A stretch of 64,000 nucleotides of DNA from the NCBI GenBank assembly GCA_963751515.1, contig CAVVUR010000008.1, forward strand, positions 140,281 to 204,280, written 5' to 3'. The position numbers were made by a program, and so were the translations under genes. Below are positions 5,296 to 29,913 of this stretch, piece by piece (the stretch's first letter is position 1; each line of letters opens with the position of its first letter). The stretch comes from an uncultured delta proteobacterium. Lineage in GTDB: Bacteria; Desulfobacterota; WTBG01. The notes beneath the pieces are model-generated. The model worked only from the letters and a program-made list of their open reading frames with translations, made no database searches and had not been told where the DNA came from.

Positions 5296-5335
5296 TCTCG
5301 TATCCTTCCTTTTTTGTAATCAGATTCCGAAGACT

Positions 5336-9152: not shown

Positions 9153-9221
9153 TGCCTAAGAATAATTATAAGATTCTTTGCGGAGCATGGCCCTCCATTA
9201 CTTAACTATTCGCTGCGATAT

Positions 9222-9752: not shown

Positions 9753-9755
9753 GCT

Positions 9756-11822: not shown

Positions 11823-12737
11823 ATGCCAATCAATAAAGCAAGCTTTTCTTCTTCCGCCTTCTGTTCCTGGCTCTTTTCGGCATTCATGCTTGTGATGTTC
11901 TCCTGTGCACAGCACCGTGAAGCTGAAATTGTGCCGGCAGCGCAGCCGGCGCCTCAGACCGAGATTGAGCGTCAGCTTGAGCAGGCGCGCTCCGACCTCT
12001 CCGTCAGCCAGGCCACCGAGAGGCGAATCACCTCCGAACTGAAGGCCCTGAAGGAGTCAGGAAAGGCGACTCCCGAAATGGTCAAGGATTATGAGATCTA
12101 CCTCAGCCGCGTGCAGTCCATGGTGGCTGAAAAGAAAAAAATCGCGGAGGAGATGGAAAAGGCGTACGCCAGGCACCAGGAGATGGAAAAAGCAGGCAAT
12201 GATTCAAAATCAGCCATACCAGCAGGCGCCCCTCCCGCGGCAGCGGCGCCGGGGCAAGAGGCCGGCGAACTCGGTACCCTGGACCGGGAACTCAGCGCAT
12301 CACTCTCTGAATTTGACCAGATGCTGCTGAAAGAAATGGATGAGATCCGCTCGAAATCTGAAAGCAGGATGAGTACCCTGGCACAGGAAGCCGCTTCGGC
12401 AGCACAAAGAATCGGGGAACAGGGCGAAGAAGCAGGCGGAACATCCGGGGAGCCCGCTTCATCTGAAGGGGGCGAAAAAGGCGGTCAGAAGGGAAGCGAA
12501 GGAGAAAGCGGCGGGAGCTATGAAAACGTGCCGACCACTGATGGGCCGGTCGCAGGGGGATCATCGGCAGGCGGTTCAGCTTCAGGGCAACAGGCGAAGC
12601 GGCCGTCCGGAAGCGACCAGGATGACGACATCGTGGCCCGCCAGCTCCGTGAAGCCGCGGAAAAAGAGACTGATCCGGAGCTCAAAAAAAAGCTCTGGAA
12701 GGAATACGAAGATTACAAGAAATCCACTCGCCAGTAA
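11823..12737 (+). CDS. acidic coiled-coil lipoprotein with Gly/Ser/Glu-rich low-complexity C-terminus
   Basis: Lipobox 'VMFSC'; heptad-like Glu/Lys-rich region; C-terminal 'GGTSGEPASSEGGEKGGQKGSEGESGGS'. Confidence 0.5.
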   Translation: MPINKASFSSSAFCSWLFSAFMLVMFSCAQHREAEIVPAAQPAPQTEIERQLEQARSDLSVSQATERRITSELKALKESGKATPEMVKDYEIYLSRVQSMVAEKKKIAEEMEKAYARHQEMEKAGNDSKSAIPAGAPPAAAAPGQEAGELGTLDRELSASLSEFDQMLLKEMDEIRSKSESRMSTLAQEAASAAQRIGEQGEEAGGTSGEPASSEGGEKGGQKGSEGESGGSYENVPTTDGPVAGGSSAGGSASGQQAKRPSGSDQDDDIVARQLREAAEKETDPELKKKLWKEYEDYKKSTRQ

Positions 12738-12821
12738 CACAATTCAGGGCGTATTTATAAACTGCGATTGCTTATAAATACGATAGCAAGCACCCTTCAC
12801 GTTTTCACCATAATCACAACC

Positions 12822-14024
12822 ATGCGCATTCATCATTGTTTAATCTGCATCTGCCTCTGTTCCATTGCCGCCTGCTCGACTCTCGACGGGGCGCGCCAGA
12901 CCGCACAAACCAAAATGGTGCAGGCGAAGCAGACCATCCCCGAATCCGAGTTGCTGGACGTGGATATCGCCATCTTTACGAGTGACGAGATCACCGAAAA
13001 AAGAGCCCGAAAAGAAGGCACCAATCCCGAGGTGAGAAAGGCTGAGAACCATTTTATTCCCTACCACCTGAAAAACACCCTGGAGGGGAGCGGTTACTGG
13101 GGCATGGTCCGGGTCACCCCGGTGATATCCGATGCGGCGGAAGTCATGGTGCGGGGTGAGATACTTGAATCGAACGGCGAGAACCTTGCCGTCAAGGTGA
13201 CCGTCAGCGACGCCACCGGCAGGGTGTGGCAGGAGAAGGAGTACGGGGCCTCGGCCACCGGCAGCGACTACCTGGGCACCACCCCCGGAGAAAAGGACGC
13301 GTTTCAGGGTCTCTACAACGCCATCTCCAATGACATGTCCCGCTTTCTTCAGGAGTTGCGCCCCGATGAGATACAGACGCTGCGCACCGTTTCAAACCTC
13401 CGCTTCGCGGGTGATTTCGCACCCCATGCCTTCGGGGACTATCTGCAGGAAAACAATGGCCGGTTTACCCTAAAGCGGCTTCCGGCCGACAATGATACCA
13501 TGATGGCCCGCATCCTGCAGATTCGCGAACGTCAATACATGTTTGAGGACGTCATCAACGAGCATTACGAAGGTTTCTACAATGAAATGTGGTCACCCTA
13601 CGAAGGCTGGCGCTCCTCAAACCTGACAGAGCGCCTTGCCCTGGAAAAGCAGCGACGCTCCGCCCTCCTCCGGGAGGCCGCGGGCGCGCTGCTGATAGCG
13701 CTGGCCATCCTGGGCGAAGTGGGCGATGTGCATGATTCCGGCGCCCTGACCGCAACGATGGTTATCATCGGCGGCCAGGTATTTTTAAGCGGCGTCAATA
13801 TCTCCAAGCAGGCCCAAATGCATTATGAAACGCTGGCAGAGCTGGGTGAATCATTCGGAAGCGAAATGAAGCCGGTGGTGATGGAATTTGAAGGAAAGAA
13901 GTATGAGCTGACTGGATCGGCGGAACAGCAATACAAGCGCTGGCGGGAGCTCTTGCGGGAAATATACTATGCCGAGACGGGGTTCCCAGCAGGAGGCGAA
14001 TCAATTGAGGTACAACCACAGTAA
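12822..14024 (+). CDS. hypothetical lipoprotein
   Basis: Probable start MRIHHCLICICLCSIAACS (lipobox IAAC); stop overlaps start of next gene (translational coupling). Confidence 0.5.
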   Translation: MRIHHCLICICLCSIAACSTLDGARQTAQTKMVQAKQTIPESELLDVDIAIFTSDEITEKRARKEGTNPEVRKAENHFIPYHLKNTLEGSGYWGMVRVTPVISDAAEVMVRGEILESNGENLAVKVTVSDATGRVWQEKEYGASATGSDYLGTTPGEKDAFQGLYNAISNDMSRFLQELRPDEIQTLRTVSNLRFAGDFAPHAFGDYLQENNGRFTLKRLPADNDTMMARILQIRERQYMFEDVINEHYEGFYNEMWSPYEGWRSSNLTERLALEKQRRSALLREAAGALLIALAILGEVGDVHDSGALTATMVIIGGQVFLSGVNISKQAQMHYETLAELGESFGSEMKPVVMEFEGKKYELTGSAEQQYKRWRELLREIYYAETGFPAGGESIEVQPQ

Positions 14025-15601
14025 TGGGCAGATCTTGTCTTCCACCGGAAAAACACATGCACGACCAAACGGGCACCACACCTACAGACCCGCGTGACAA
14101 AATCATAACCCCGCTCAAGGTGACCGCGAGAGAAGAAGGGGCCGGTCACGCTGACGGCAGGAAACAATCATTCCGGTATTACACCACGCTGGTTGGGGCT
14201 CTGGTAATCCTCACTGCGGGAGGTCTCTGGCTGTTCAGCTACCTGTCAAGGAACCCCCTGCCACCTGAAGCAGCGCGAAATCAAAAGCAGGCGTCGGAAG
14301 TGACTCCTGAAGCGGTGCCGTCAATCGTTCCTGTCACAACACAACCTCCGGCAGCGCAGGCGCAGTCGGCTGCGCAGAACAAAAAGGAAGAGGCGGAACA
14401 AAAGCTCGCTGATTTTTTGAAAGCAAAAAAAGAGCTTGATGAGAAGGGGGTCGCAGAGTGGGGCGGAGAGGGCTATCAGCGGCTGCTGCAGCTCGCTCAG
14501 GCTGCCGATGCCGCGCTCATGCGGGAAGAGTTTGCAGCCGCCGCAGAGGGCTACACTCAGGCCTCCGCTGTCGCGCTCAGCCTGAAAGCAGGTATGGTGG
14601 ATGCGCTCAGTGACATCCTTGAGCAAGGCCGGCGCGCGCTCAAGGAAGGCGACGGCAAGAAGGCTGAACGGCTCTTCAGACTCGCCCTGATGATAGAACC
14701 TGCGCACCCTGTGGCCCTGCGCAATCTCGATCGCGCCAAAAACTGCGGGAAGGTCTTGGAGCTGCTGCAATCCGCCGCGCGGCATGAAGAAGGCAACAGC
14801 CTTTCTTCCGCCCGTGATGACTACCAGGAGGCCGTTTGGCTGGACCCTGAATCGGAAGAGGCCCGGGCCGGCCTGGCACGCGTGACCGGCCTGATAGCTT
14901 CCCGGCAATTTGATGAATTGATGTCAGGGGGAATAACCGCGCTGCACGCGCACGACTACGGCCGCGCCCGGCAGCTGCTCCTCAAGGCGCGATCGATTAA
15001 GCCCGATTCCCCCGAGGTCAATGACGCTCTCGCTCAGGCGGATTCGGCCCTGAAAAGGGCCCGCATCGCTGGGCTGCAAAATGAGGCGGCTGCTGCCGAG
15101 CGCTCCGAGGACTGGAATGAGGCGCTTGCAGCCTATCAAAGCGCTCTTTCCCTGGATGGCTCCATTCAGTTTGCCCTGCAGGGCAAAGAACGGGCGCTCA
15201 AGCGTAAGGAAATGGAAGAAAGCATCAAAAGCTACCTGGCCCAGCCAGGCCAGCTGGAAACCGACGGATCCCTGAACAGGGCAAGGGCGTTGCTTGGTGA
15301 GGCGCGGCAGATGGAGCCGAGAGGTCCCCGCTTGAGCAGTCTTATACAGGAACTGGATGAGCTTGTTGCCGCCGCCCGCACCACTGTCCCGGTGATTATC
15401 GAATCGGACGGGGAAACCGAAGTGGCCGTTTACAAGGTGGGCAAGCTGGGCCGCTTCCAAAGCAAGGAACTGGCCCTCCGCCCGGGAACCTATACGGTCA
15501 CGGGGGCCCGATCCGGATACAAGGATGTGCGCCGCAGCCTCTCGGTCAAGGCCGGCAGCGCGTCGCTGCGCATAACCGTCAGCTGCACTGAAAAAATATG
15601 A
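14024..15601 (+). CDS. membrane-anchored TPR-repeat protein with C-terminal PEGA-like beta domain
   Basis: Single TM 'YYTTLVGALVILTAGGLWLFSYL'; repeated Ala/Leu-rich TPR-like helices; C-term 'LALRPGTYTVTGARSGYKDVRRSLSVKAG'; overlaps next gene by 4 nt. Confidence 0.6.
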   Translation: MGRSCLPPEKHMHDQTGTTPTDPRDKIITPLKVTAREEGAGHADGRKQSFRYYTTLVGALVILTAGGLWLFSYLSRNPLPPEAARNQKQASEVTPEAVPSIVPVTTQPPAAQAQSAAQNKKEEAEQKLADFLKAKKELDEKGVAEWGGEGYQRLLQLAQAADAALMREEFAAAAEGYTQASAVALSLKAGMVDALSDILEQGRRALKEGDGKKAERLFRLALMIEPAHPVALRNLDRAKNCGKVLELLQSAARHEEGNSLSSARDDYQEAVWLDPESEEARAGLARVTGLIASRQFDELMSGGITALHAHDYGRARQLLLKARSIKPDSPEVNDALAQADSALKRARIAGLQNEAAAAERSEDWNEALAAYQSALSLDGSIQFALQGKERALKRKEMEESIKSYLAQPGQLETDGSLNRARALLGEARQMEPRGPRLSSLIQELDELVAAARTTVPVIIESDGETEVAVYKVGKLGRFQSKELALRPGTYTVTGARSGYKDVRRSLSVKAGSASLRITVSCTEKI

Positions 15602-17697
15602 AAATGTCTGCAGAGCCTCCGGCGCAACAAATCATTGAACCCATACCATTCAAACCGGTCGACTCCCGTCGTCCGCACGGTGGCCTATCCCGCGGACGAT
15701 GGCTGTTCATTGCGCTTCTTGCATGCTTCCTTTTCTTTTTCCTCTACGCGATCCTGTTTGTCTTTACCGCCCGTCAGGTATCAATACAAATACATCCCGA
15801 CCCCGATCGGGTCTCCGTCAAGGGGTCGCTCTTCAGCATCCACATTGGCAGCAGCTACCTCCTGCGCCCCGGAAACTATCGTGTGCACGCCTTTAAATCC
15901 GGGCACAAAGCGCTGGAGCTGCCGTTGCTTGTCACCGGGGAGTCAAACCAGAAACTGGTCGCCGTCATGGAAAAGCTTCCCGGCCGCTTAACCGTAACCG
16001 CTTATCCGCAGGAGCGGCCCGCTGAAACCGTTGCAGGGGCCGAGGTCTCTATCGACGGTCAAAAGGCCGGTGTCACTCCCCTTGCCGTCATCGAGGTCAA
16101 GGCCGGTCCCAGGGAAGTGCTCATCAGGGCAGACCAGTACCAGGACTTCAAAACCTCCCTGGAGGTAGAAGGCATGGGCACCTTGCAGACACTAAACGCG
16201 GCGCTGGTATCAGCATCGGGCGGTATCACCGTTGATTCCATTCCATCAGGCGCGGACGTTGCCATCGATGGAACAGTACGGGGAAAAACCCCCTTGCAGC
16301 TCAAGCTCGGCGCAGGAACCTATGGCTTGGAGATACGCGCCCCCCATTACAAAAGCTGGCAGGACCGCCTTGAGTTAAAGGAAGGTCAGCAGGAGGTGCT
16401 GGATACGGTCACGCTGCTTCCTGCCGACGGCACCATACAAGTGCGGACGAACCCTCCGGGGGCCATTGTGACAGTTGATAAAACCTTCTTCGGACGCACG
16501 CCCGCAAGCATTCCGCTTTCGCCGGAGGCTGATCACGCGCTTCACATCTCCAAGGCGGGCTACGAAAATATTGAAGAAAAGGTGCGTGTGGCCAGCGAAG
16601 AGGTCCGGGAACTCAGCCTGGAGCTGAAACCCGCCACCGGGACCATCCACTTCAGCGTAACACCTGAGAACGCAGAGCTTTACATTAATGCCATGCCTCA
16701 AGGCCCTGTGCCTCCGAGCCTGATCCTCCCATCCGCGCCACAGAAGCTCAAAATAGTAAAAGAAGGTTACGAGACGTATCAAACAGAGATAACGCCGCAG
16801 CCCGGCGTTGCAAAGGAAATAAACGTAACCCTCCTCAAAAAAATCCCGGCCCCGGCGGCAGCGGGTTCAGCAGCGAGCATCAGAGCTGCGAACGGATACC
16901 CCCTGCTCCTGGTCCGGCTTTCCTCCTTTACCATGGGTTCTTCGCGGCAGGAACAGGGACGCAGATCCAACGAAACGCTCCGAGAAATCGTTTTCACCCG
17001 GCCATTTTACATGGGCCTCAAGGAAGTGAGCAACGCTGAATTCCGGGCATTTCTCCCCGGCCATGATTCCGGCTCTCTTCAAGACCACAGCCTCAATCAG
17101 GACGCGCAGCCGGTTGTCAATATTACCTGGGAGGAGGCCGCCTCATACTGCAACTGGTTAAGCGGGAAGGAAAAGCTCCCGCCGGTGTATAGCCTCCGGG
17201 GAGGCAGGTTGATTGCCGGGGGACCCCTGGCAAGCGGCTACCGGCTGCCGACAGAGGCGGAATGGGAATACTGTGCACGCGTGACCGGAAAGACGGCTGA
17301 CTCACTCTATCCCTGGGGCAGCGGCTTTCCGCCCCCGACACGAACCGTTAACATTGCCGACCTCTCCGCCCGGGATCTGCTTCCCGGGTACTTTGACAAC
17401 TATGAGGACGGCTATCCTGTTTCAGCTCCGCCCGCCACCTTCGCTGCCAACGCACTCGGCATCTACGATCTCGGCGGCAATGTTGCCGAGTGGTGCCATG
17501 ACTATTATTCAATATACTCTTACAACCCCGGCCAACGCTACCAGGACCCCGCGGGCCTTCAGGAAGGAACGCATCACCTTATAAGAGGGTCAAGCTTCAG
17601 GCACGCGAGCATCAGCGCCCTGCGATCCGCTTTCCGGGATTACAGCAGTGAAAAAAGACCGGACGTGGGATTTCGCGTCTGCCGGTACGCCGATTAA
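15598..17697 (+). CDS. membrane protein with multiple PEGA domains and C-terminal FGE-sulfatase (SUMF1/formylglycine-generating enzyme-like) domain
   Basis: PEGA motifs e.g. 'SIPSGADVAIDGTVRGKTPLQLKLGAGTYGLEI'; FGE signature 'GYRLPTEAEWEYCAR', 'NVAEWCHDYY'; N-terminal TM. Confidence 0.75.
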   Translation: MKMSAEPPAQQIIEPIPFKPVDSRRPHGGLSRGRWLFIALLACFLFFFLYAILFVFTARQVSIQIHPDPDRVSVKGSLFSIHIGSSYLLRPGNYRVHAFKSGHKALELPLLVTGESNQKLVAVMEKLPGRLTVTAYPQERPAETVAGAEVSIDGQKAGVTPLAVIEVKAGPREVLIRADQYQDFKTSLEVEGMGTLQTLNAALVSASGGITVDSIPSGADVAIDGTVRGKTPLQLKLGAGTYGLEIRAPHYKSWQDRLELKEGQQEVLDTVTLLPADGTIQVRTNPPGAIVTVDKTFFGRTPASIPLSPEADHALHISKAGYENIEEKVRVASEEVRELSLELKPATGTIHFSVTPENAELYINAMPQGPVPPSLILPSAPQKLKIVKEGYETYQTEITPQPGVAKEINVTLLKKIPAPAAAGSAASIRAANGYPLLLVRLSSFTMGSSRQEQGRRSNETLREIVFTRPFYMGLKEVSNAEFRAFLPGHDSGSLQDHSLNQDAQPVVNITWEEAASYCNWLSGKEKLPPVYSLRGGRLIAGGPLASGYRLPTEAEWEYCARVTGKTADSLYPWGSGFPPPTRTVNIADLSARDLLPGYFDNYEDGYPVSAPPATFAANALGIYDLGGNVAEWCHDYYSIYSYNPGQRYQDPAGLQEGTHHLIRGSSFRHASISALRSAFRDYSSEKRPDVGFRVCRYAD

Positions 17698-17718: not shown

Positions 17719-18063
17719 ATGTGCTATACCATAACCATACTGGGTCTGCTCTGCTGCACGTGCCTTCCTGCACCATCATTCAGGGGCGCAAGCGATACGG
17801 TCAGGTGGCAACACATCGGATGGGAAAGCTGTTTCATCCTCACTGACGGCGCTCACCATCCAGGCTTGCTTGCCCAGCGGAGTCAAACCACCATTCCTGA
17901 CAGAAAAGAGCCGGCACCTGAAAAGCAGGATGCCAAGCCCCAAGCGGCAGAACAGAACAAAGAAGTGTCTCAGCAGAAAGATAAAACACCAGCTCCTAAA
18001 GACTTTGTTCCCTCTGAAAAGATTGATGCTGATAAGGCGGTGGATTTTCCGGCAGATATTTAA
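17719..18063 (+). CDS. small Lys/Pro/Gln-rich hypothetical protein (possibly not expressed)
   Basis: ORF only; low-complexity C-terminus; no RBS evaluated. Confidence 0.2.
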   Translation: MCYTITILGLLCCTCLPAPSFRGASDTVRWQHIGWESCFILTDGAHHPGLLAQRSQTTIPDRKEPAPEKQDAKPQAAEQNKEVSQQKDKTPAPKDFVPSEKIDADKAVDFPADI

Positions 18064-18075: not shown

Positions 18076-18879
18076 ATGAAAAAATCGTTTTCTTTATCCT
18101 TTGAGTTCCTGTACCAGTTGTTCTCGCTTATCATCAGCGTTATCCTGGTGCATGCAGTCTACGTGGGGATCATCTGGCCCGCCTCGGATGCATTTCTGGC
18201 CGAACAGGCTGCCCTGATGAAACAGGACCCATCGCACGTAGCCAAGCAGTCCGTCTACGTGGTATTGGTTGACTATGAACAGGAGACAGAAATCATCCTC
18301 ATGTTCTGGGCATTGGCCATCATGATCTACAAAGGCATTGTAATCACCAGAAACCGCACCCTGCTGCAGGAGGACCTGATACCCATGGCGGAGGGAATGA
18401 AAATATTGCCTGAGGATGTCCACGATATCTCCCGGCAGATACAGTCATTGCCGGCGGCGCAGAAGGGTGCCCTGCTTTCCCGGGTTTTGCTTGCCGCATT
18501 GCAGCGTTTCAGTTCAACCCGCAACATTCAGGATGTATCCAATGCCACCAATGCCTATTGTGCTTCTGAAGGAGACCGCCTGGACTCCGAGCTTTCCATG
18601 ATCAGATACGTCCTGTGGGCCATTCCCTCCATCGGTTTTCTGGGCACGGTGCGGGGCATCAGCCTGGCGCTGGGCTATGCCCACCGGGCGGTCGAAGGGG
18701 ACATCTTTGATGTCACCAAAAGCCTGGGGACGGCATTCAACTCAACCCTGATCGCCCTGCTGATAAGTCTCGTGCTGATGTTTTTCCTGCACCAGCTTCA
18801 GCTGCTTCAGGAGCGTTACGTGCTGGATACTGAAACATACTGCGAAGAGAAGCTCATCAGTCGTCTCCACGCCCGTTAG
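18076..18879 (+). CDS. MotA/TolQ/ExbB-family proton-channel protein (stator A-type subunit)
   Basis: Family signature across last two TM helices 'IPSIGFLGTVRGISLALGYAHRAVEGDIFDVTKSLGTAFNSTLIALLISLVLMFF'; 4 predicted TM; AGGAG RBS 7 nt upstream. Confidence 0.75.
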   Translation: MKKSFSLSFEFLYQLFSLIISVILVHAVYVGIIWPASDAFLAEQAALMKQDPSHVAKQSVYVVLVDYEQETEIILMFWALAIMIYKGIVITRNRTLLQEDLIPMAEGMKILPEDVHDISRQIQSLPAAQKGALLSRVLLAALQRFSSTRNIQDVSNATNAYCASEGDRLDSELSMIRYVLWAIPSIGFLGTVRGISLALGYAHRAVEGDIFDVTKSLGTAFNSTLIALLISLVLMFFLHQLQLLQERYVLDTETYCEEKLISRLHAR

Positions 18880-18890: not shown

Positions 18891-20321
18891 ATGACACTGC
18901 TGGGAATCGAGTTGAGTGACGCCGGCATAATGGCAGCTGCAGGAGATCCGCCACTGCTCCTCGACACAGATGGGGCAGAAAAATCAAGCCCCGGTTTTGC
19001 CCTCAGCACCAACGATGGACTCATCATGGGACGAGTTGCCTTAAGCAGGTTTCGTCTCAATCCCCGCTCATACAACAATCGTTTCTGGGACGAGCTGAGC
19101 ACTGAACCGATTAAACAGCCGGGGTTTGAAGGGAAAAGCTATGCGGAGCTGGCATATCGTCACCTGTCAAAGCTATGGGACATCCTCAGGAATAAAGCAG
19201 ACGAGGTTGTCATCGCTGCCCCCGGTTTTTATACCCCGCATCAGCTGGGCATTCTCTTGGGGATTGCGGATGAATTATCCATACCCGTCAAAGGATTTGC
19301 CTCGATCGCACTGGCAGGATCGTCGGCCCCCCATCCTGAGCACCCCCTCCTGCACTTGGACATTCACCTGCACCGGATTGAAATAACCTTTCTCGAGCAG
19401 GGTGACCGCCTTATCCAGAAAGAAGTGAAGACTATTCCGGGTAGAGGTTTCAACTATCTGTACACGGAATGGGTGAAGATGGTTGCAGACGAGTTTGTGC
19501 GAACAACACGTTTTGACCCCTTTGATCAGGCCGCATACGAACAGGAGTTGTACAACCGCCTTCCCCCGGCAATTGAAAGCCTGCAGCCGCATTCATCCAC
19601 GACATTTACCTTACAAGCCGGGGCACACAGCCACCGCGCAACCTTAACCCATGACCTTTTTGCTCAAAAAACCGAAGCCGTGCTTTCAGAGGTGCGCCGG
19701 ATCATCGAGGATATGATGCTCAGTGCAGGCTTCCATGAAAAAGCCCCCGTTCTTTCGATCACTCAACGCATCCGTCACCTGCCCGGCTTCAAAGAATCCA
19801 TATGCAAAATACCCGGTCTCACCATCGTTGAACTTGCGCCGGGATCGGGTGCCCTGGGAGTACTCAAGCTGCGGGACCGATTCACCAGCCAGCACGAAAG
19901 ACAGGGTATCACACTTTTAAACAGCCGCCCCTGGCCGCCCAAATCAGCCGGCGGCCATGCCCCCACCCCACCTGTCCGGGCCATCATGCAGCCCAATCAT
20001 ATCCTGCACGAGGATTGTGCCTACCCCATTACCGCTGAGCCTCTCATCATTGGTCAGAGTAACCATGACGGTGAGACCACCCTGTGCATCAGCAGCAACC
20101 CTTCAGATTTCTCTCAACGATACTGTACCATTCAGCGTGAAAGGGATGATATCGTACTCGTCAATGAGTGTTCGGCCGGCACCCTTGTGAATGAACAAAA
20201 GGTTTTAAAAACATGTGTTCTCAGCCTGGGCCAGAAAATCAGAGTGGGGACACAATCAGATGAGCTCAAACTGATCGCTTGTGTGGGCACTGATGAAAAA
20301 GAGAGACGTAACCGTATTTAG
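18891..20321 (+). CDS. Hsp70/actin-fold ATPase domain fused to C-terminal degenerate FHA domain
   Basis: DnaK-like phosphate-1 'LLGIELSDAGIMAA' and 'VVIAAPGFYTPHQLGILLGIADELSIPVKGFASIALAGS'; C-term FHA-like 'IIGQSNHDGETTLCISSNPSDFSQRYCTIQRERDDIVLVNECSAGTLVNEQKV...LSLGQKIRVG' (Arg->Gln, His->Tyr at canonical positions). Confidence 0.6.
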   Translation: MTLLGIELSDAGIMAAAGDPPLLLDTDGAEKSSPGFALSTNDGLIMGRVALSRFRLNPRSYNNRFWDELSTEPIKQPGFEGKSYAELAYRHLSKLWDILRNKADEVVIAAPGFYTPHQLGILLGIADELSIPVKGFASIALAGSSAPHPEHPLLHLDIHLHRIEITFLEQGDRLIQKEVKTIPGRGFNYLYTEWVKMVADEFVRTTRFDPFDQAAYEQELYNRLPPAIESLQPHSSTTFTLQAGAHSHRATLTHDLFAQKTEAVLSEVRRIIEDMMLSAGFHEKAPVLSITQRIRHLPGFKESICKIPGLTIVELAPGSGALGVLKLRDRFTSQHERQGITLLNSRPWPPKSAGGHAPTPPVRAIMQPNHILHEDCAYPITAEPLIIGQSNHDGETTLCISSNPSDFSQRYCTIQRERDDIVLVNECSAGTLVNEQKVLKTCVLSLGQKIRVGTQSDELKLIACVGTDEKERRNRI

Positions 20322-21384
20322 CATCTCCTTCATTGACTGCATCACCTGCGGCCTGGGCGCGATGCTCCTGCTGTTTGTGATTGTGAATGCCAGGAGCGTG
20401 GCCAGCAGGAGCGAGATCACCTCGGACATCCGGGGAGAAGTTGACCGGATGGAAAAAGAGGTGCTCCAGGGGAAAAAGGACCTGGTGGAAGCCCGCAATA
20501 CAATGGAGCAGACCCTGGAGGAACTGGTGAAAACGCAGGGGCTCTCGCGCAGGGTTATAGCAACCATTACGGAAAAAAAGACCGAGCTTTCCAGTTATGA
20601 CAACGATACCCTCGCCTCCAGGGAACACATCAACCGCTTGAAGGCGGATCTCAAGGCGAAGGAGGAGGCGCTCAAGCGGCTCGAAGGCGGGAGCACCTCC
20701 CGCGACGACCACGGCTCGAAGGTGAGGCAATTCACCGGAGAGGGTGACCGCCAGTACCTGACCGGCCTCAAGATGGGAGGCCAGCGGGTCTTCATCCTTG
20801 TCGATGCCTCGGCCAGCATGCTTGATGATACCGTCGTGGGCATCATCCGCAAAAGGAATATGGCCGACGCGGACAAGCGAAAGGCAGACAAGTGGCGGCA
20901 TGCGGTGAAGTCCATCGACTGGCTGACCACCCAGCTACCCCTCACCGGCTCCTACCAGGTTTACAGCTTCAATGAGACCGCTGCCCCTGTCCTCGAGGGG
21001 ACCGCCGGAAAGTGGCTGGACGGCAACAATTCCCTGCAGCTTAATGAGATAGTCAACCGTTTGCACCTGATGGTGCCGCAGAACGGAACCAGCCTCATCA
21101 ATGCCATTGCCGCCATGCACGCCATGTCACCGCCGCCCGACAACATCTTCCTGCTCACCGACGGACTGCCCACCATGGGAAGAGAAAAGCCCTGGGGCAA
21201 AAAGGTATCCGGGGAAAAGCGCCTGGCCCTGTTTAACGAAGCAACGCGCCAGCTTCCGCCCCAGGTTCCGGTAAATGCAATTTTATATCACATGGAAGGG
21301 GATCCTGCCGCCGCCAGCGCCTTCTGGCGACTGGCCATGGCAACCGGCGGCTCCTTTTTTTCTCCGTCCCGGGACTGGCCCTAA
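20293..21384 (+). CDS. ExbD/TolR-like N-terminal TM helix (conserved Asp) + coiled coil + vWA domain protein, paralog 1
   Basis: TM 'VTVFSISFIDCITCGLGAMLLLFVIV' (cf. TolR 'EINIVPLLDVLLVLLLIFM'); long Glu/Lys heptad region; vWA MIDAS 'RVFILVDASASM', 'NGTSLINAI', 'IFLLTDGLP'; start overlaps upstream gene. Confidence 0.7.
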   Translation: MKKRDVTVFSISFIDCITCGLGAMLLLFVIVNARSVASRSEITSDIRGEVDRMEKEVLQGKKDLVEARNTMEQTLEELVKTQGLSRRVIATITEKKTELSSYDNDTLASREHINRLKADLKAKEEALKRLEGGSTSRDDHGSKVRQFTGEGDRQYLTGLKMGGQRVFILVDASASMLDDTVVGIIRKRNMADADKRKADKWRHAVKSIDWLTTQLPLTGSYQVYSFNETAAPVLEGTAGKWLDGNNSLQLNEIVNRLHLMVPQNGTSLINAIAAMHAMSPPPDNIFLLTDGLPTMGREKPWGKKVSGEKRLALFNEATRQLPPQVPVNAILYHMEGDPAAASAFWRLAMATGGSFFSPSRDWP

Positions 21385-21601: not shown

Positions 21602-22603
21602 ATGAGAACGCGAAGAAGAGAACTCGAGATATTCAGCCTCTCATTTCTGGACTGCATCTGCTGCGGCTTCGGCGCCATTATCCTGCTCTTTGTCCTGTCG
21701 AAATTCGGCCAGCCCATCAAGATAGAGGAAGTGAAGCAGGATTTGACGGCGCTTCTGGCAAAGCGCGAAGAAGAGCTGTTTGTTATCCGGGGTGAAGTAC
21801 AGGTGCTCAACCGTGAGCTGGAAGGAAAAAAGGAGCAGCTCTCGCGGGAGAAGGAGAGCCTGGCGCGCCTCCAGGGCGACCTCTCAAAATTACAGGGGGA
21901 GTTTGCCGCATCACAGCAAAATGCCGCGGTACAAAACACCATTGAGGGCAAGCTCGCTCAGGCCCAGCAGGAGCTTACCGAGGAGATGAAGCGTCTGCAG
22001 AAGGACCGGCCGGTGGTGCGCGACGGCTCGGTGGGAGGCATCCCCGTCGACAGCGAGTACATTATTTTCATCATCGACACCTCGGGGAGCATGCAGCGCA
22101 ATGCCTGGCAGCTGCTGCAGAAAAAGCTCCGCGAAACGCTGGATGTCTACCCCCGGGTCAAGGGCATCCAGGTCATGAACGACGAAGGCACTTATTTATT
22201 TCCCGAGTACCGCGGCAGCTGGATCCCCGACACCGCGGGCCGCCGAAAGGTGATCATCAACACCTTAAGCGGCTGGACACCCTTCAGCAACAGCAGCCCC
22301 GTGGAAGGGATCAACGAAGCCATCTCCACCTATTACGATCCCGGCAGGAAGATCAGCCTCTATGTCTTCGGCGATGAGTTCAGCGGATATGACATGCAGG
22401 GGGCAATCGATACCGTGGACCGGTTAAATAAAGCGGACAGGACTGGCGCGCGGCGGGTGAGGATCCACGCGGTGGGATTTCCCACGGTGCTCAAAGATAT
22501 CCGCGATGAGATGAATACAGGGGTTCGCTTTGCCGCCCTGATGCGCGTCCTCTGCCAGCGAAACGGGGGCACGTTTGTCGGGCTCAACACCACCAGGCCT
22601 TAG
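21602..22603 (+). CDS. ExbD/TolR-like N-terminal TM helix (conserved Asp) + coiled coil + vWA domain protein, paralog 2
   Basis: TM 'LEIFSLSFLDCICCGFGAIILLFVLS'; coiled coil; vWA 'YIIFIIDTSGSM', 'LYVFGDEFSG'; ORF in track begins at 21569, the Met at 21602 is preferred by homology to paralog 1. Confidence 0.7.
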   Translation: MRTRRRELEIFSLSFLDCICCGFGAIILLFVLSKFGQPIKIEEVKQDLTALLAKREEELFVIRGEVQVLNRELEGKKEQLSREKESLARLQGDLSKLQGEFAASQQNAAVQNTIEGKLAQAQQELTEEMKRLQKDRPVVRDGSVGGIPVDSEYIIFIIDTSGSMQRNAWQLLQKKLRETLDVYPRVKGIQVMNDEGTYLFPEYRGSWIPDTAGRRKVIINTLSGWTPFSNSSPVEGINEAISTYYDPGRKISLYVFGDEFSGYDMQGAIDTVDRLNKADRTGARRVRIHAVGFPTVLKDIRDEMNTGVRFAALMRVLCQRNGGTFVGLNTTRP

Positions 22604-22754: not shown

Positions 22755-23186
22755 TCAGTACCGCCACTTGCCTCTGGAAAATGAGAAGATCTCGGTTACC
22801 GGGCATTCCTGTTGAAGCTTGAACTGCCCGTTTACCGCTTCTTCATAGGTCTTGGCCTTACTGACGAAGGTCTGCTCCTGATAATTGAGGATCCCGACAT
22901 AGGGAGTCTCTTTGCTTGCAGTCTTTTTGGTTCTTCCGCTATAGGTTCTGCTGTAGCCGGTATATTCAGCAACGAAGCAATCATCAACCTTCTTGCAGGC
23001 AATATTGATCTTGCTTTTTTCTTCCCGGCTATACAGATGCTCCATCCACTGCTGATTGAAAAGCTGAAAGCTCGCCTCCACGTCCTGGCTTTCATCTATC
23101 GCATACAGCGCAGGATGTGGTACCAGCACGCCGAGGCACAGGGCCACCGCATAAACGGCAACAAGGTATCTCATGGCCGCACTCAT
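22755..23186 (-). CDS. secreted hypothetical protein
   Basis: Signal peptide 'MRYLVAVYAVALCLGVLV'; no recognisable domain. Confidence 0.4.
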   Translation of the reverse strand: MSAAMRYLVAVYAVALCLGVLVPHPALYAIDESQDVEASFQLFNQQWMEHLYSREEKSKINIACKKVDDCFVAEYTGYSRTYSGRTKKTASKETPYVGILNYQEQTFVSKAKTYEEAVNGQFKLQQECPVTEIFSFSRGKWRY

Positions 23187-23845
23187 TCGCCGTTCATGAC
23201 CTTGAACTCAACCCTGCGGTTCATTTCCCGGCCCTGACGGGTTTCATTGTCGGCAACGGGGTTCGCTTCACCATACCCCATCGTGCTCAGTTTTTCAGCG
23301 GCAATGCCCTTCTCCACCATATAGGCCTTCACTGCTTCCGCCCGCTTTTCAGAGAGACGCAGGTTGTAATCCTCGGCCCCGATGCTGCAGGTATAACCCT
23401 CAACCGCAACACTTTTCTCGGGATGCTTTGCTAAAGCGGCAATCCCCTCATCAAGGATTGGATAATATTGATCCTTAATGACCGCCTTGTCGAAGTCGAA
23501 CTGTATGCCATTGAGAACGATCTTTTCAACCACCTTGGGCGGCGGTGGCGGTTCTTCTGCTACTGGCTCAGGTACCGTCGTCGTTGTCGTCGGCGGCGGT
23601 TCCTCTTTGCACACCACTGCACCGATTATTCCTCCGACGACTAAACCAGCTGCCGCACCGACAGCGGCCCCCTCTGCGGTATCTTCATCACCCTGGTGAC
23701 CAACAACAGCACCAGCACCGGCTCCTATAGCTGCACCGGCTACAGCACCTGCTGCTATACATTTTGCCCGCTTGGACGCCGTCGAGCAACCAGCGGCCAG
23801 CACAACTACCAGAATTAAGACCATCGCCTTCGCAAATACTTTCAT
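23183..23845 (-). CDS. OmpA-family peptidoglycan-binding lipoprotein with glycine-zipper and Pro/Thr linker
   Basis: Lipobox 'LAAGCS'; 'AGAVAGAAIGAGAGAVVG' Gly-zipper; OmpA_C-like 'NGIQFDFDKAVIKDQYYPILDE...NRRVEFKV'. Confidence 0.8.
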   Translation of the reverse strand: MKVFAKAMVLILVVVLAAGCSTASKRAKCIAAGAVAGAAIGAGAGAVVGHQGDEDTAEGAAVGAAAGLVVGGIIGAVVCKEEPPPTTTTTVPEPVAEEPPPPPKVVEKIVLNGIQFDFDKAVIKDQYYPILDEGIAALAKHPEKSVAVEGYTCSIGAEDYNLRLSEKRAEAVKAYMVEKGIAAEKLSTMGYGEANPVADNETRQGREMNRRVEFKVMNGE

Positions 23846-24585: not shown

Positions 24586-25473
24586 TTACGGAACTATTTC
24601 ATACCCATACCGCTTCATTTCTTCACCGCACAAAGTAATAAACGTATCTTTATCCGACCGGCTCCATTCCGGCCATTTGGGAAAAAGAAATGTCCTGGTA
24701 ATGTTCTTGGGCTTTCCGACAAATTCAAGCCACTCCTGTTCTACATTGAACTTCATATCCGTTATCGTAAGCAGCATGGATTCAAATGCGGCGTAATTGC
24801 TGATCATGTCCTCAAATCGTATGGTTGCATCAGCATGTTCCCGCATGTACGAGTTTTCATAGGTCCACAGCCAGCAGAGCTTTTCGAACCGTGTAAAGCG
24901 CGACCACCGATGAGGATCAATGTCTTTACGGGGAGGGACAAAATCGTAATAGTCCTTATCCTCCGGGGTATACGCTCTCCTGCTCATGACCGACCGCACC
25001 CCATCTCTTCCGTCACGGATGACATGAATAATTTTCATGGCCGGGAGATGCTTCTTAAACGCCGCTATGTGTCGGCGCAAATGGCTGTTGACTTCACCAT
25101 ACATGCTAGCCCTGTTCGCAACACACCGCAGGGCCATCTCCCCAAGGCGAAAATCAAGGAGATACTTCTCCGCTTCGGCGGGATTCATAACTGCTTTCTT
25201 GTGGAAGGGATTTTCCCTTGGAACCGGCTCATGCATGACGCACAAACCGTCAACACGCCTGTTTAAAAAATGTGCCAGCCAGGCGGTTCCTGTTCTTCCG
25301 GTGCTGGTGATCAAAAAAAGCTTTCGCTGCTTCAGAATGGCAAGCGCTTCACCCGTTCCGGGAATTATCCAGCGAAGGGCGGCGCGATACGCAAATCCCT
25401 TATCAATGCCGATTTTACCGGCCTTGCGGCTCACCTGGTAAATAAAGCGTGTCCAATCAAATGTGCTGTTCAT
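24586..25473 (-). CDS. sulfotransferase-family protein
   Basis: PAPS 5'-phosphosulfate-binding-like 'FLITSTGRTGTAWLAHF'; 295 aa. Confidence 0.65.
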   Translation of the reverse strand: MNSTFDWTRFIYQVSRKAGKIGIDKGFAYRAALRWIIPGTGEALAILKQRKLFLITSTGRTGTAWLAHFLNRRVDGLCVMHEPVPRENPFHKKAVMNPAEAEKYLLDFRLGEMALRCVANRASMYGEVNSHLRRHIAAFKKHLPAMKIIHVIRDGRDGVRSVMSRRAYTPEDKDYYDFVPPRKDIDPHRWSRFTRFEKLCWLWTYENSYMREHADATIRFEDMISNYAAFESMLLTITDMKFNVEQEWLEFVGKPKNITRTFLFPKWPEWSRSDKDTFITLCGEEMKRYGYEIVP

Positions 25474-25506
25474 ACGTGCGCTCCCATACCCAGGCGACCT
25501 CTAAAA

Positions 25507-25575
25507 TTGTTGTGGCTAAAAAGCCCCTCCCCCTTGAGCCACATATAAATAAAGAAATCAATGACGCACTACACT
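25507..25575. repeat. half copy of MITE-like element (inner plus outer inverted-repeat module), reverse orientation
   Basis: TTGTTGTGGCTAAAAAGCCCCTCCCCCTTGAGCCACATATAAATAAAGAAATCAATGACGCACTACACT matches the reverse complement of 37128-37198. Confidence 0.5.
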
Positions 25576-26427
25576 GAATGATGTCTGAGAAATAACTGGC
25601 CAAAACAAGGGCAGGTGTCAATTTGACAGGGCTGCGCTTCCCTGTCAAAGGTGATGCCCTTGGAGATATGACCCAAAACGGTTTTGTCACCGACACATCT
25701 CGTAACCCTGCCGTCGGGCGATATGCGGATAAATAATCTGCCGGCATCGCATTTAATGCCCCTGGATTTTACCGGGATTTCCTCAAGGAAACAGGGGTTG
25801 TATTCTGAAAGCAGCTTTTTTTCCTCCCCGGCATAAGCCTGGGGGTACCGTTTCCCCTGGAACTCCCCCTTGAAAGGCTTGGGCATGATTGGACCCCTCT
25901 TGATCGGAAGTAGTCATAGTCCTTCATGAATCTGCTGATCAGGCTCGGCTGTAAAACATAGCTCACCCGGCAATTAAATCCCTTTTCCTGCAACAACAAA
26001 ATATTGCCTATAAAATCATCGACCTGATTTCCTCTTTCGCGCTCCGCGATATGCGTCCGATATGTAAAGGAGTCTACTGGTCTGGGTATGATTTTTTTGC
26101 AAACTCCGCCACCCTTCTGTTGATGCTTAAATTTGTATCTACATAAATGCAAAAGTGCTCCGTAAGCGTTTCGCACAATTGGACAAACCGGGGGTACGTG
26201 AAAGGTTCTCCGCCGGTTAAGCCGATCGTCCACTTTTTCCCCTCCTCGTTTTTCAACAGCTTAATTATCTTGCTGCTTCCCTCCAGGGGGTCCGCGGGAA
26301 GGCCGGTAAGCCTGTGCATATTTTTTTGCCCATGGTGCTGAAACGTCGCGCAATCCCGTGGTCGGAGTTTGCCCTTCCAATCTTGCAATACGGGCAGTGA
26401 AAATTGGATTCCCTGGTAAAATACCAC
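25569..26427 (-). pseudogene. radical SAM / SPASM-domain protein split over three reading frames
   Basis: Radical SAM 'GLTGGEPF' in ORF 26074-26427, middle and SPASM-like Cys-rich C-terminus ('CFLEEIP...CVGDK...CQIDTCPC') in two other frames. Confidence 0.45.
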
Positions 26428-26470
26428 AAGGCCAGGGCCTGTGTATCTTCGCTTGAACTCTGAGCAAATT

Positions 26471-27097
26471 TCATAAGGCGTTATGGGCTCTGATTCGTTT
26501 GTCCGCCCGCTCCATGAGCGGTTTCAGGCGCTTAAAAATTCTGCGCCACTTAAAATAGCTGGAGATGGAATCATACGCGGACACCGCTCCGTGTGTCAGG
26601 TAGAGGTATAATGCCGACAGGCGGGTCTCATCGGTATAGGCATACACCCTGTCATAACCGGCTGCCGCAAAAAAAGCCAGGCTTCGGTAGGTAAGCGCAA
26701 CGGCCAATCTTTTTTTCCCGCGGTGGGAGGAATCAAGTACAAGCCACAACCCGACTCCTATTTTTTTTCCCGCCGTGGACTTGTCAGACGTGGCGCTGCA
26801 TCCCACCAGGCGACCCTTATAGTACAGCAGCGACCCTGCATCCGGCGCGATCATCTGATCTACCAGGGCCTTTTTCACCCGTTCCGCTGTCCAGACACCA
26901 ACTCACTCATCACGATTTAAAAGATCGCTCCACTCATTAAGATCCGTTTCCTGACCCGGCGAGACGATGGTGTATCCCTCAGGCAAATCCCATTGCCGGC
27001 CCACATATTCTGCAAACGTGGCTACAGGAAATTCCAGTTTAACCTGCTTGGGGAAGAATATTCTGAAAAATTTTTTAATTTTTCTCTTGGACAGCAT
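26471..27097 (-). pseudogene. GNAT-family N-acetyltransferase interrupted by in-frame TGA (26903-26905)
   Basis: Two same-frame ORFs; downstream part has GNAT motif A-like 'HRGKKRLAVAL' and motif B region. Confidence 0.35.
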
Positions 27098-27546
27098 GAT
27101 TAAGGAGGTACGGGGAAGTCAGCAAGCACCGTCGCAGGGCACAGTCATTGATGGTTACTGTGCAGTCCGCAACACCCGCGCAAAAGCGCTGACAGGGTAA
27201 CACCAATGAATACAAATAGCAATGCGAATCTATTACCTGCTGCGGGGCACAGGTTGTGACGGAACAACCCGAAAGGGGGCGCCCATGCCCCGAAACGCCG
27301 TGTGCTATGCATGAAAGCATACAGCAGTGACCCCGTTAATCATCATCCGGTCTCCGCATCATTGTGACGGGTGAGCAAAAAAAACAACGATTGACAATTA
27401 CGGCAATAGCAGCTATATACCCCCTAATTTCAAATGGTTTTTCAGACGGGCACAAACGCCGATTGCTCCTTTCACATCACACAAGGGCGGCCCGAACCTC
27501 TTAAGAAATTGAGCAGAAACAGGGCATTATTAAAAGAGTTGCGCTG

Positions 27547-28692: not shown

Positions 28693-28920
28693 TGATACAT
28701 GATGCAGGATGCATGATGCAGGACAAGTCTTTAACATGAAGCGAGGGAAACAGGGCACATCCGAAATCCGAACAGAGAAACCAAGAGCCGGGGTTTTGAA
28801 CATTTGGTATGCTGATTTTGAATTTGTTTCGTGCTTCGGATTTGACACCCGAAACGACTGCACCTCAAAACCAATTATTACCAGTATGAACCATCTTTTG
28901 ATGCACCTGAAAGGCTCCCG

Positions 28921-29775: not shown

Positions 29776-29913
29776 TCACCATCCTTCCCGCCGCAATCAT
29801 TCGCGATACAATCCGGCCGCTTTTCGACGGTTCGACAGCACAGCTGAAAATAATGCGCGGGAAATGTGACAGGAGAAGCATCCCTTACCGTTTTTTGACC
29901 GGATGATAATGGT

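What the first reader, a model, noticed from the sequence alone, without database searches (positions are those of the whole stretch)
18891..20321. Hsp70-like nucleotide-binding domain fused to a degenerate FHA domain
The N-terminal half follows the DnaK nucleotide-binding-domain pattern (phosphate-1 'LGIELSDAG', 'VVIAAPGFYTPHQLG...IALAGS'). It lacks a substrate-binding domain. The C-terminus has the FHA beta-sandwich pattern, but the canonical phosphothreonine-binding Arg and His appear replaced (GQ for GR, SQRY for SxxH). This suggests a non-phospho-dependent or altered-specificity FHA. The gene sits between the MotA-like gene and the vWA genes and could couple ATP hydrolysis or nucleotide state to the membrane module.
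Basis: partly seen in the sequence, partly recalled or inferred. Interest (0 to 1): 0.6.

Follow-up and report, generated by a model that had tools for sequence, protein, structure and literature searches.

The report
Hsp70-fold/FHA adaptor of an envelope motor
This gene encodes a soluble protein with the fold of an Hsp70 ATPase domain, but with the ATP-binding motifs replaced, joined to an atypical FHA domain; it is a fixed, undescribed cytoplasmic part of a widespread operon for a proton-driven envelope machine.

Summary
ORF 18891-20321 (+, 476 aa) has an N-terminal Hsp70 nucleotide-binding-domain fold: all top 50 PDB matches are Hsp70/Hsp110. A disordered linker joins it to a C-terminal FHA beta-sandwich: all top 50 PDB matches are FHA domains. 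There is no substrate-binding domain.

The interpretation needs correcting. The ATP-site motifs are replaced family-wide, by residues that are themselves conserved. DLGTTNS becomes ELSDAGI. DLGGGT becomes DIHLHR. GG becomes (T/S)HR (Q-R in this protein). K70 and E171 are lost. A canonical ATPase is therefore unlikely.

The FHA lacks the GR arginine and the NG asparagine across most of the family. This protein's subclade has also lost the histidine.

The fusion is conserved in at least 1,000 clusters at 50% identity. The gene always lies between a MotA/TolQ-like gene and two vWA genes. These vWA proteins carry an ExbD-like helix with an invariant Asp. The operon has nine collinear genes.

In a sister clade, the upstream TPR protein carries a Ser/Thr kinase domain. 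That domain is absent here.

Best reading: a cytoplasmic adaptor or regulator of a proton-driven 5:2 motor, ancestrally read through phosphothreonine and probably phospho-independent here. I found no description of this component.

The parts
18891..20321 (+). g7: the 476-aa Hsp70-NBD-fold + FHA protein. Soluble and cytoplasmic, with no signal peptide or TM segment.
18891..19895 (+). Residues 1-335: Hsp70-type NBD fold with a remodelled nucleotide pocket (E7, D10, D157, H159, H161, R162, R293) and a conserved FVRTTRFDP...EQ motif (res 202-218).
19905..19937 (+). Residues 339-349: the conserved post-NBD segment G-x-x-(L/F)-L-x-S-R-P-W, modelled as short strands. A disordered linker follows (res 353-365).
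19989..20285 (+). Residues 367-465: FHA beta-sandwich with non-canonical binding-loop residues (G388-Q389, S408-Q-R-Y411, A429-G430).
18076..18879 (+). g6: MotA/TolQ/ExbB-like proton-channel subunit (267 aa, four predicted TM segments). T191 and T224 in the TM helices are invariant, as is T148 in the cytoplasmic loop.
20293..21384 (+). g8: an ExbD/TolR-like N-terminal TM helix (SFIDC, Asp invariant), a coiled coil and a vWA domain with an intact DxSxS MIDAS motif. The start overlaps the end of g7. The ORF list gives GTG at 20281; orthologues favour ATG at 20293.
21602..22603 (+). g9: paralogue of g8 (SFLDC helix, coiled coil, vWA). The ORF list starts it at 21569; the orthologue length of 333 aa favours 21602.
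14024..15601 (+). g3: bitopic TPR protein. Its roughly 50-aa cytoplasmic N-tail carries the conserved KIITPLKV motif. In sister clades the same gene position encodes a Ser/Thr kinase-TM-TPR fusion.
15598..17697 (+). g4: bitopic protein with PEGA repeats and an FGE-sulfatase (GldK/PorK-like) domain. Its cytoplasmic N-tail carries the conserved IIEPIPFKP motif.
17719..18063 (+). g5: small, poorly conserved, low-complexity protein (114 aa) with a probable lipoprotein-like N-terminus.
11823..12737 (+). g1: predicted lipoprotein with coiled-coil and low-complexity regions. First gene of the collinear block.
12768..14024 (+). g2: predicted lipoprotein of unknown fold (418 aa), conserved in the block.

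Best explanation
The gene encodes the only dedicated soluble cytoplasmic subunit of a conserved envelope-spanning machine.

The machine, shown or strongly implied:
- Its core is a MotA/TolQ-like proton channel (g6).
- Its ExbD/TolR-type 'B' subunits are two paralogous proteins (g8, g9). Each has an Asp-bearing trans-pore helix, a periplasmic coiled coil and a vWA domain.
- Two bitopic proteins accompany them: TPR (g3) and PEGA/FGE-sulfatase (g4). Lipoproteins g1 and g2 and the small g5 complete the block.

The protein (g7), shown:
- It uses an Hsp70-NBD fold whose phosphate- and adenosine-binding glycine loops have been replaced by conserved Asp, His and Arg side chains.

Inferred:
- It works as a rigid adaptor or switch module, not as a canonical ATPase or chaperone.
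- It docks on the cytoplasmic face of the motor and/or on the conserved [IV]-x-P-[IVL]-x-[FIV]-[RK] peptides in the cytoplasmic tails of g3 and g4. This would resemble the way actin-fold PilM binds the N-terminal peptide of PilN.
- The FHA domain is the signal-reading arm. In sister lineages the g3 protein carries an active-looking Hanks Ser/Thr kinase on its cytoplasmic side, so the FHA there probably reads a phosphothreonine made by that kinase. This would gate assembly or activity of the motor.
- In the lineage of this window the kinase domain is gone. In this particular subclade the FHA has also lost His411, and close relatives have lost Ser408. Binding here is probably phospho-independent or constitutive.
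For: Fold assignments:
- NBD fold.
- FHA fold.

ATP-site replacement, with strong conservation of the replacing residues:
- In 140 representatives at a median 31% identity to the query, D10 is present in 138/140 and H161 in 137/140.
- E7 is present in 127, D157 in 126 and R293 in 121 of the 140.
- The motifs ELSDAGI and LDIHLHR are near-identical across 82 loci.

Conserved fusion and gene position:
- Searches show the fusion is kept.
- Where the contig reaches that far, all nine genes are collinear in the 82 loci. MotA was found in 80 loci and both vWA genes in 78.
- The same core order is seen in the few distant gammaproteobacterial and unclassified loci sampled.

Motor features:
- The trans-pore-helix Asp is present in 75/75 (g8) and 67/68 (g9) orthologues.
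- MotA T191 and T224 are present in 77/77.
- The MIDAS DxSxS motif is invariant in both vWA proteins.
- This matches the published 'tolQ + heterologous TPH-vWA pair, no tolR' class (PMC12204202).

Cytoplasmic docking motifs:
- Conserved motifs occur in the g3 and g4 tails and in the kinase juxtamembrane region.

Kinase in sister operons:
- Kinase-TM-TPR occupies the g3 position in L087, L089, L090 and L091.
- 101 such proteins have conserved VALK, HRDxKxxN and DFG motifs.

FHA erosion tracks kinase loss in a small sample:
- S-R-x-H is kept in the kinase-bearing loci whose FHA motifs were read (L087, L089) and in the pseudokinase locus L083. L090 and L091 were not read.
- It is eroded in three kinase-less lineages: this window's subclade, L085 and L088.

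Precedent:
- An FHA domain of GltG is predicted to sit on the cytoplasmic face of the TolQ-like AglR pentamer (PMC11761067).
Against: - No physical interaction was tested or predicted here.
- The pocket residues are so conserved that the site is clearly under selection. It may still bind a nucleotide in an unusual way, or another ligand or a metal.
- Most kinase-less Desulfobacterales orthologues keep S-x-K-H. Kinase loss and FHA erosion are therefore not tightly linked.
- The GR arginine is missing even in kinase-bearing operons, so classical pThr binding is uncertain there too.
- The Thr of the g3 motif is not invariant and does not covary with FHA residues.
- The biological output of the machine is unknown.
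Confidence: 0.55

Rival explanations
1. It is an active Hsp70/actin-like ATPase. ATP hydrolysis or nucleotide state drives or gates the membrane module.
For: - The NBD fold is genuine.
- The two acidic positions that hold Mg2+ in Hsp70 are kept as E7 and D157.
- The pocket is under strong purifying selection.
Against: - There is no Pfam HSP70 hit.
- The glycine-rich phosphate-1, phosphate-2 and adenosine loops are replaced by S-D-A, H-L-H-R and (T/S)-H-R.
- The K70 equivalent is deleted and the E171 equivalent is hydrophobic.
- The operon contains no DnaJ or GrpE partners.
Confidence: 0.12
2. The remodelled cleft is a new ligand or metal sensor. The conserved Glu/Asp/Asp/His(+Arg) cluster binds a divalent metal, a phosphorylated ligand or a second messenger, and this sets the state of the motor.
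For: E7, D10, D157 and H161 are 90-99% conserved across about 30%-identical relatives. R162 and R293 are 76-86% conserved. Such conservation is not expected for a dead pocket.
Against: - Nothing is known about the ligand.
- The same residues could simply lock the two lobes together.
- No coordinates were available to check the geometry.
Confidence: 0.2
3. It is a phospho-dependent FHA effector of a trans-acting Ser/Thr kinase encoded elsewhere in the genome. The Hsp70-like domain is the regulated output; for example, it could bind or release the MotA loop that carries invariant T148.
For: - Sister operons carry a kinase.
- S408 is retained here.
- MotA T148, in T-R-N-I-Q-D, is invariant.
Against: - Q389 replaces the phosphate-binding Arg, Y411 replaces His and A429 replaces Asn.
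- The closest relatives also lose Ser408.
- No kinase or PP2C gene was found among the ORFs scanned around the operon. The only kinase-like gene seen is a Kdo/WaaP-family LPS kinase about 10 kb downstream.
Confidence: 0.13

Closest known systems
Hsp70/DnaK nucleotide-binding domain, including non-hydrolysing relatives such as Ssz1 and Hsp110
   Same: It shares the two-lobed NBD fold. All best PDB matches are Hsp70-family, with TM about 0.7 against isolated NBDs. The beta1 'IGIDLG', 'VITVPAYF' and phosphate-2 strands align.
   Different: - No SBD and no J-protein or GrpE partners.
- No Pfam HSP70 match.
- Catalytic and phosphate-binding residues are replaced.
- It is fused to an FHA domain and embedded in a membrane-motor operon.
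ASKHA-fold scaffolds of envelope machines: PilM (binds the PilN N-terminal peptide), FtsA, and the GspL cytoplasmic domain (established knowledge, not tested here)
   Same: It is a soluble actin/Hsp70-superfamily domain encoded next to bitopic membrane proteins that carry short conserved cytoplasmic N-terminal peptides. A scaffolding role rather than an enzymatic one is proposed.
   Different: The structural neighbours are Hsp70, not PilM or FtsA. The partner machine is a MotA/TolQ-type motor, not a pilus, T2SS or divisome. Peptide binding is only inferred.
TolQ-like motors with paired trans-pore-helix vWA proteins (PMC12204202, Mol Biol Evol 2025)
   Same: A tolQ/motA-like gene lies with two heterologous vWA genes whose N-terminal helix carries the essential Asp. 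No tolR/exbD gene is present.
   Different: That paper does not mention an Hsp70-like or FHA gene, or the PEGA/FGE-sulfatase gene. Here g7 sits between the motor gene and the vWA genes in every locus whose contig reached them.
FHA domains attached to envelope machines: GltG of Myxococcus Agl-Glt (PMC11761067), the T6SS Fha1/PpkA threonine-phosphorylation pathway, and the phospho-independent FHA-like domains of T3SS YscD/PrgH (the last two from general knowledge)
   Same: A cytoplasmic FHA is associated with a trans-envelope apparatus. A membrane Ser/Thr kinase with a periplasmic sensor part occurs in sister operons. FHA binding residues are degenerate in some lineages.
   Different: The FHA is carried by a soluble Hsp70-fold protein rather than by the membrane component. 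The GR arginine and NG asparagine are absent in most of the family.

Membership tests
Hsp70/DnaK family | Two-lobed NBD fold (IA/IB/IIA/IIB) | tested here: met
   The top 50 Foldseek PDB matches are all Hsp70/Hsp110, with E from 1e-18 to 1e-15. The model has pLDDT 87.
Hsp70/DnaK family | Sequence-level membership (Pfam PF00012 or an NCBIfam DnaK/HscA model) | tested here: not met
   No HSP70 hit at E<=0.1 in Pfam or NCBIfam. Only weak profile hits to Ssb1, at E=8e-4.
Hsp70/DnaK family | ATP-binding and hydrolysis motifs: D8, G-T-T, K70, E171, D194-L-G-G-G-T199, G-G-x-T-R-x-P | tested here: not met
   The equivalents are E7, S-D-A, a deletion, I/x, D157-I-H-L-H-R and T-Q/H-R...L-P-G.
Hsp70/DnaK family | C-terminal substrate-binding domain and lid | tested here: not met
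   After residue ~335 there is only a short conserved segment, a disordered linker and an FHA domain.
FHA domain (PF00498) | 11-stranded beta-sandwich fold and a profile match | tested here: met
   Pfam scores 20.9 bits against a cut-off of 20.7. The profile hits Ki-67 at E=1.4e-5 and more than 30 other FHA structures. The top 50 Foldseek matches are all FHA.
FHA domain (PF00498) | Phosphothreonine-binding residues: Gly-Arg, Ser-x-x-His, Asn-Gly | tested here: not met
   The query has G388-Q389, S408-Q-R-Y411 and A429-G430. In the family, Arg is present in 16%, Ser in 73% and His in 82% of 140 representatives, and Asn is not among the four commonest residues at that position. Asn was seen in 2 of 246 in a wider sample.
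FHA domain (PF00498) | Partner Ser/Thr kinase or phosphatase in the same system | tested here: not met
   None was found in this operon or among the flanking ORFs scanned. A kinase is fused to g3 in sister-clade operons.
TolQ-like / TPH-vWA motor systems (PMC12204202) | A tolQ-like gene adjacent to two heterologous vWA genes, with no tolR/exbD gene | tested here: met
   g6 matches MotA_ExbB at 1.9e-12. g8 and g9 are vWA paralogues. No ExbD or MotB hit occurs in the operon.
TolQ-like / TPH-vWA motor systems (PMC12204202) | An N-terminal trans-pore helix with a conserved Asp, and conserved Thr in the channel helices | tested here: met
   Asp is present in 75/75 and 67/68 orthologues. T191 and T224 are present in 77/77.
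TolQ-like / TPH-vWA motor systems (PMC12204202) | Assembly as a 5:2 complex | not testable with these tools
   No multimer prediction was available.
PilM/FtsA-type ASKHA scaffolds | Binds the cytoplasmic N-terminal peptide of a bitopic partner | not testable with these tools
   Conserved candidate peptides exist in g3 and g4. Binding was not tested.
Known anti-phage defence systems (PADLOC) | A match to any defence-system protein model | tested here: not met
   g7 has no hit. MotA shows only weak ZorA-like similarity, at E about 5e-4.

The most novel reading that the evidence does not exclude
The Hsp70 fold has been turned into a new kind of sensor. Its former ATP cleft, now lined by near-invariant Glu7, Asp10, Asp157 and His161 plus less conserved Arg162 and Arg293, binds a metal or a non-nucleotide ligand. 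Together with the FHA arm, which reads a kinase signal in sister lineages, it acts as a clutch on the cytoplasmic face of a previously unrecognised class of proton-driven 5:2 motors. The stators of these motors are vWA proteins.
Probability: 0.15. Interest if true: 0.8.

Novelty: new variant of a known kind. Interest (0 to 1): 0.6.

Why it matters
MotA/TolQ/ExbB-type 5:2 motors power flagella, Ton and Tol transport, gliding and the Zorya defence system. Apart from the flagellar motor, their cytoplasmic partners are mostly poorly known.

This family is a conserved cytoplasmic partner for a recently noticed motor class whose stator subunits are vWA proteins. It is widespread, with at least 1,000 clusters at 50% identity. 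Members occur in Desulfobacterota, Planctomycetota (anammox Brocadiaceae), Nitrospinota, Acidobacteriota and Gammaproteobacteria such as Steroidobacteraceae.

It also gives a clear example of an Hsp70 fold that has lost its ATP-site motifs while its cleft stays under selection. Within one orthologous system it shows a series running from active kinase, through pseudokinase, to no kinase.

The kinase-bearing form occurs in Steroidobacteraceae MAGs. That family has cultured members, which were not checked here. If they carry the operon, the regulatory link between Ser/Thr phosphorylation and a proton-driven motor could be tested by experiment.

Tried and rejected
- Single-sequence search against PDB sequences gave only noise: endonuclease V and GrpE at E>0.3.
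- PADLOC found no defence-system membership.
- The Hsp70-containing conflict systems of Kaur et al. 2020 (PMC7159879) combine Hsp70 with GTPases, tubulin, GrpE or DnaJ. This is a different context and was rejected.
- I tested whether the Thr in the g3 'IITPLKV' motif covaries with the FHA binding residues. It does not.
- A preprint on Ferrigenium, found through a search for TolQ and von Willebrand, was irrelevant.
- Literature searches for the Hsp70/ASKHA + FHA + MotA/ExbB + vWA combination found no description.
- The exact protein P0001 is not in the contig index.
The full-length A1 was used instead.
- Cluster names for distant members gave only 'hypothetical protein'.
Full report
**1. The observation**

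The window has an ATG-initiated ORF at 18891-20321 (+) of 476 aa. An AGGAG site overlaps the stop codon of the preceding gene, 7 nt before the start. The 3' end overlaps the start of the next gene, so the genes are probably translationally coupled.

**2. N-terminal domain**

Pfam and NCBIfam find no Hsp70 model, and a single-sequence PDB search finds nothing. The protein has 462 homologues of about 470 aa.

- A profile of 28 N-terminal domains hits the ATPase domain of yeast Ssb1 at E=8e-4. Other Ssb and Ssz1 chains follow.
- An AlphaFold2 model built on 36 sequences has mean pLDDT 87.
- Its 50 best Foldseek matches in the PDB are all Hsp70 or Hsp110 proteins. E-values run from 1e-18 to 1e-15, and TM is 0.70-0.75 against isolated NBDs.

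The Hsp70-type fold is therefore established.

**3. The ATP site is not kept**

The alignments place the query residues against DnaK and Ssb1 as follows.

| Hsp70 element | Hsp70 residues | This protein |
|---|---|---|
| Phosphate-1 | I-G-I-D8-L-G-T-T-N | L-G-I-E7-L-S-D10-A-G |
| Lys70 | present | falls in an 8-residue deletion |
| N-E171-P-T | present | S-I-P-V |
| Phosphate-2 hairpin | D-L-G-G-G-T | D157-I-H159-L160-H161-R162 |
| Adenosine motif | G-G-S-T-R-I-P | T-Q-R293-I-R-H-L-P (family consensus S/T-H-R) |

The substituting residues are among the most conserved in the family. In 140 representatives of 50%-identity clusters (median 31% identity to the query), conservation is as follows:

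- D10: 138/140
- H161: 137/140
- E7: 127/140
- D157: 126/140
- R293: 121/140
- R162: 106/140

The motifs are almost letter-identical in 82 genomic loci. I conclude that canonical ATP binding and hydrolysis are unlikely. The cleft has been remodelled and is under selection. It may be a lobe-locking network or a new binding site; I could not tell which without coordinates.

Other near-invariant features are the motif F202-V-R-T-T-R207-F-D209-P210 ... E217-Q218 and a post-NBD segment G339...R346-P-W348. The latter is confidently modelled as short strands. I infer these are interaction surfaces.

**4. C-terminal domain**

- Pfam FHA just passes its cut-off in this protein, at 20.9 against 20.7 bits. 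Most homologues carry PF00498.
- A profile of the last 113 residues hits more than 30 solved FHA domains. Examples are Ki-67 at 1.4e-5, Rv0020c at 4e-4 and Rad53 at 7e-4.
- The separate model (pLDDT 84, 11 strands) returns only FHA domains in its top 50 PDB matches.

The binding-loop residues are atypical. The query has G388-Q389 for Gly-Arg, S408-Q-R-Y411 for Ser-x-x-His, and A429-G430 for Asn-Gly. Across the family, in 140 representatives:

- Arg follows the Gly in only 16%.
- Ser is kept in 73% and His in 82%.
- Asn is not among the four commonest residues at that position. It was seen in 2 of 246 sequences in a wider sample.

The family as a whole is therefore non-canonical. The subclade of this window is more degenerate still; its closest relatives read VLQRCC or IPQQCC.

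**5. Context**

The gene is the seventh of nine collinear genes:

1. g1: lipoprotein with a coiled coil.
2. g2: lipoprotein of unknown fold.
3. g3: bitopic TPR protein.
4. g4: bitopic protein with PEGA repeats and an FGE-sulfatase domain (GldK/PorK-like).
5. g5: small low-complexity protein.
6. g6: MotA/TolQ/ExbB-like channel.
7. g7: this gene.
8. g8: vWA protein.
9. g9: vWA protein, a paralogue of g8.

Where the contig reaches far enough, the order is identical in 82 loci. These come from Desulfobacterota, Planctomycetota (Brocadiaceae, Kuenenia), Nitrospinota, Acidobacteriota and others. The g4-to-g9 core order is also kept in the eight distant loci sampled (L083-L091).

g8 and g9 begin with an ExbD/TolR-like helix (SF[IL]DC). 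Its Asp is invariant, in 75/75 and 67/68 orthologues. MotA T191 and T224 are invariant, and both vWA domains keep DxSxS.

This is the class that a 2025 paper described as tolQ homologues tightly linked to heterologous pairs of vWA proteins with a trans-pore helix and no tolR (PMC12204202). That paper mentions neither an Hsp70-like or FHA gene nor the PEGA/sulfatase gene. Further literature searches found no description of the architecture.

**6. A kinase in sister operons**

In four distant loci the gene at the g3 position encodes a protein of about 780 aa. It has an N-terminal Pkinase domain, a TM segment and TPR repeats.

A search with the non-kinase part found 587 relatives. Nearly all full-length proteins among the best 120 carry Pkinase, and many are from Steroidobacteraceae. 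In 101 of them the VALK, HRDxKxxN and DFG motifs are conserved.

The kinase state varies between loci:

- L083 has a pseudokinase: HRS, and GFA in place of DFG.
- L087 and L090 have partly degenerate kinases.
- L085, L088 and the whole clade of this window have none.

The FHA motif was read for five of these loci. S-R-x-H is present in kinase-bearing L087 and L089 and in pseudokinase L083. It is eroded in kinase-less L085 and L088 and in this window's subclade, yet it is retained in most kinase-less Desulfobacterales. L090 and L091 were not read. This is a suggestive trend from a small sample.

**7. Candidate docking peptides**

The cytoplasmic N-tails of g3 (KIITPLKV) and g4 (IIEPIPFKP) carry conserved motifs of the form [IV]-x-P-[IVL]-x-[FIV]-[RK]. 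The juxtamembrane segment of the kinase-bearing g3 carries a similar motif, I-R-I-E-P-P-S-I-R.

g7 is the only dedicated soluble cytoplasmic protein of the operon. I infer that these peptides, and/or the strongly conserved MotA cytoplasmic loop (invariant T148), are its ligands. Two analogies support this:

- PilM binds the N-terminal peptide of PilN (general knowledge).
- The GltG FHA domain is predicted to dock on the AglR pentamer (PMC11761067).

**8. Mechanism proposed**

- Shown: the folds, the motif replacement, the conserved fusion, operon membership, the stator-like vWA pair, and the kinase in sister operons.
- Inferred: g7 is a non-ATPase adaptor or switch on the cytoplasmic face of a proton-driven 5:2 motor. 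Its FHA arm ancestrally read a phosphothreonine produced by the g3 kinase. In this lineage, which has no kinase and an eroded FHA, binding is phospho-independent or constitutive.
- Rivals: an active ATPase (unlikely); a ligand or metal sensor (open); a phospho-dependent effector of a kinase encoded elsewhere (less likely for this particular protein).

**9. Novelty and score**

Each domain is known, and the motor class has been noted. However, I found no description of this Hsp70-fold/FHA family, of its fixed place in the motor operon, of its remodelled cleft, or of the kinase/pseudokinase/no-kinase series. I rate it a new variant of a known kind, with interest 0.6.

The window's closest relative is an uncultured 'delta proteobacterium' MAG, at 93% identity for g7.

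Noticed in passing
window 20293-21384 and 21602-22603: Two paralogous proteins, each with an ExbD/TolR-like N-terminal helix (invariant Asp), a long coiled coil and a vWA domain with an intact MIDAS DxSxS. They look like the 'B' subunits of the adjacent MotA-like channel. No ExbD or MotB gene is present.
   Followed up: partly
window 14024-14180 and 15598-15690 (N-termini of g3 and g4): Short conserved cytoplasmic motifs, KIITPLKV and IIEPIPFKP, precede the single TM helix of two bitopic periplasmic proteins. A similar IRIEPPSIR motif lies between the kinase domain and the TM helix in sister-clade g3 proteins.
   Followed up: partly
L087:4039-6375, L089:2912-5275, L090:2968-5292, L091:3145-5448: In sister operons the TPR gene carries an N-terminal Hanks-type Ser/Thr kinase domain. 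L083:4205-6484 looks like a pseudokinase version (HRD to HRS, DFG to GFA).
   Followed up: partly
window 18076-18879 (MotA-like protein, residue T148): An invariant Thr (77/77) sits in the conserved cytoplasmic-loop sequence RFS(S/T)TRNIQDV. It is a possible phospho-site or contact site.
   Followed up: no
L077:9992-11098: In one MAG chromosome (Deltaproteobacteria bin435) the g7 orthologue is a 368-aa ORF that ends after the NBD, with no FHA. The two vWA genes are missing downstream. This may be a decayed operon or an assembly artefact.
   Followed up: partly
window 15598-17697: The PEGA-repeat/FGE-sulfatase protein scores 1e-30 against the T9SS ring lipoprotein GldK/PorK model, far below that model's cut-off. 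This hints at a ring-forming periplasmic component analogous to the T9SS.
   Followed up: no
window 23183-23845 (-): A lipoprotein with a glycine zipper and an OmpA-family peptidoglycan-binding domain lies just downstream on the opposite strand. It is not conserved next to the operon in other loci.
   Followed up: no
window 24586-31452: A cluster of envelope or LPS-type genes lies here: a sulfotransferase, a GT4 glycosyltransferase and a Kdo/WaaP-family kinase. It is unrelated to the operon in other genomes.
   Followed up: no
window 1171-11576: The upstream genes are metabolic or otherwise unrelated to the operon: a B12-binding radical SAM protein, an O-methyltransferase, an SLT transglycosylase with a solute-binding domain, an AMP-binding enzyme, and a pyruvate:ferredoxin-oxidoreductase-like protein with 4Fe-4S domains. 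This is consistent with an anaerobic Desulfobacterota-like host.
   Followed up: no
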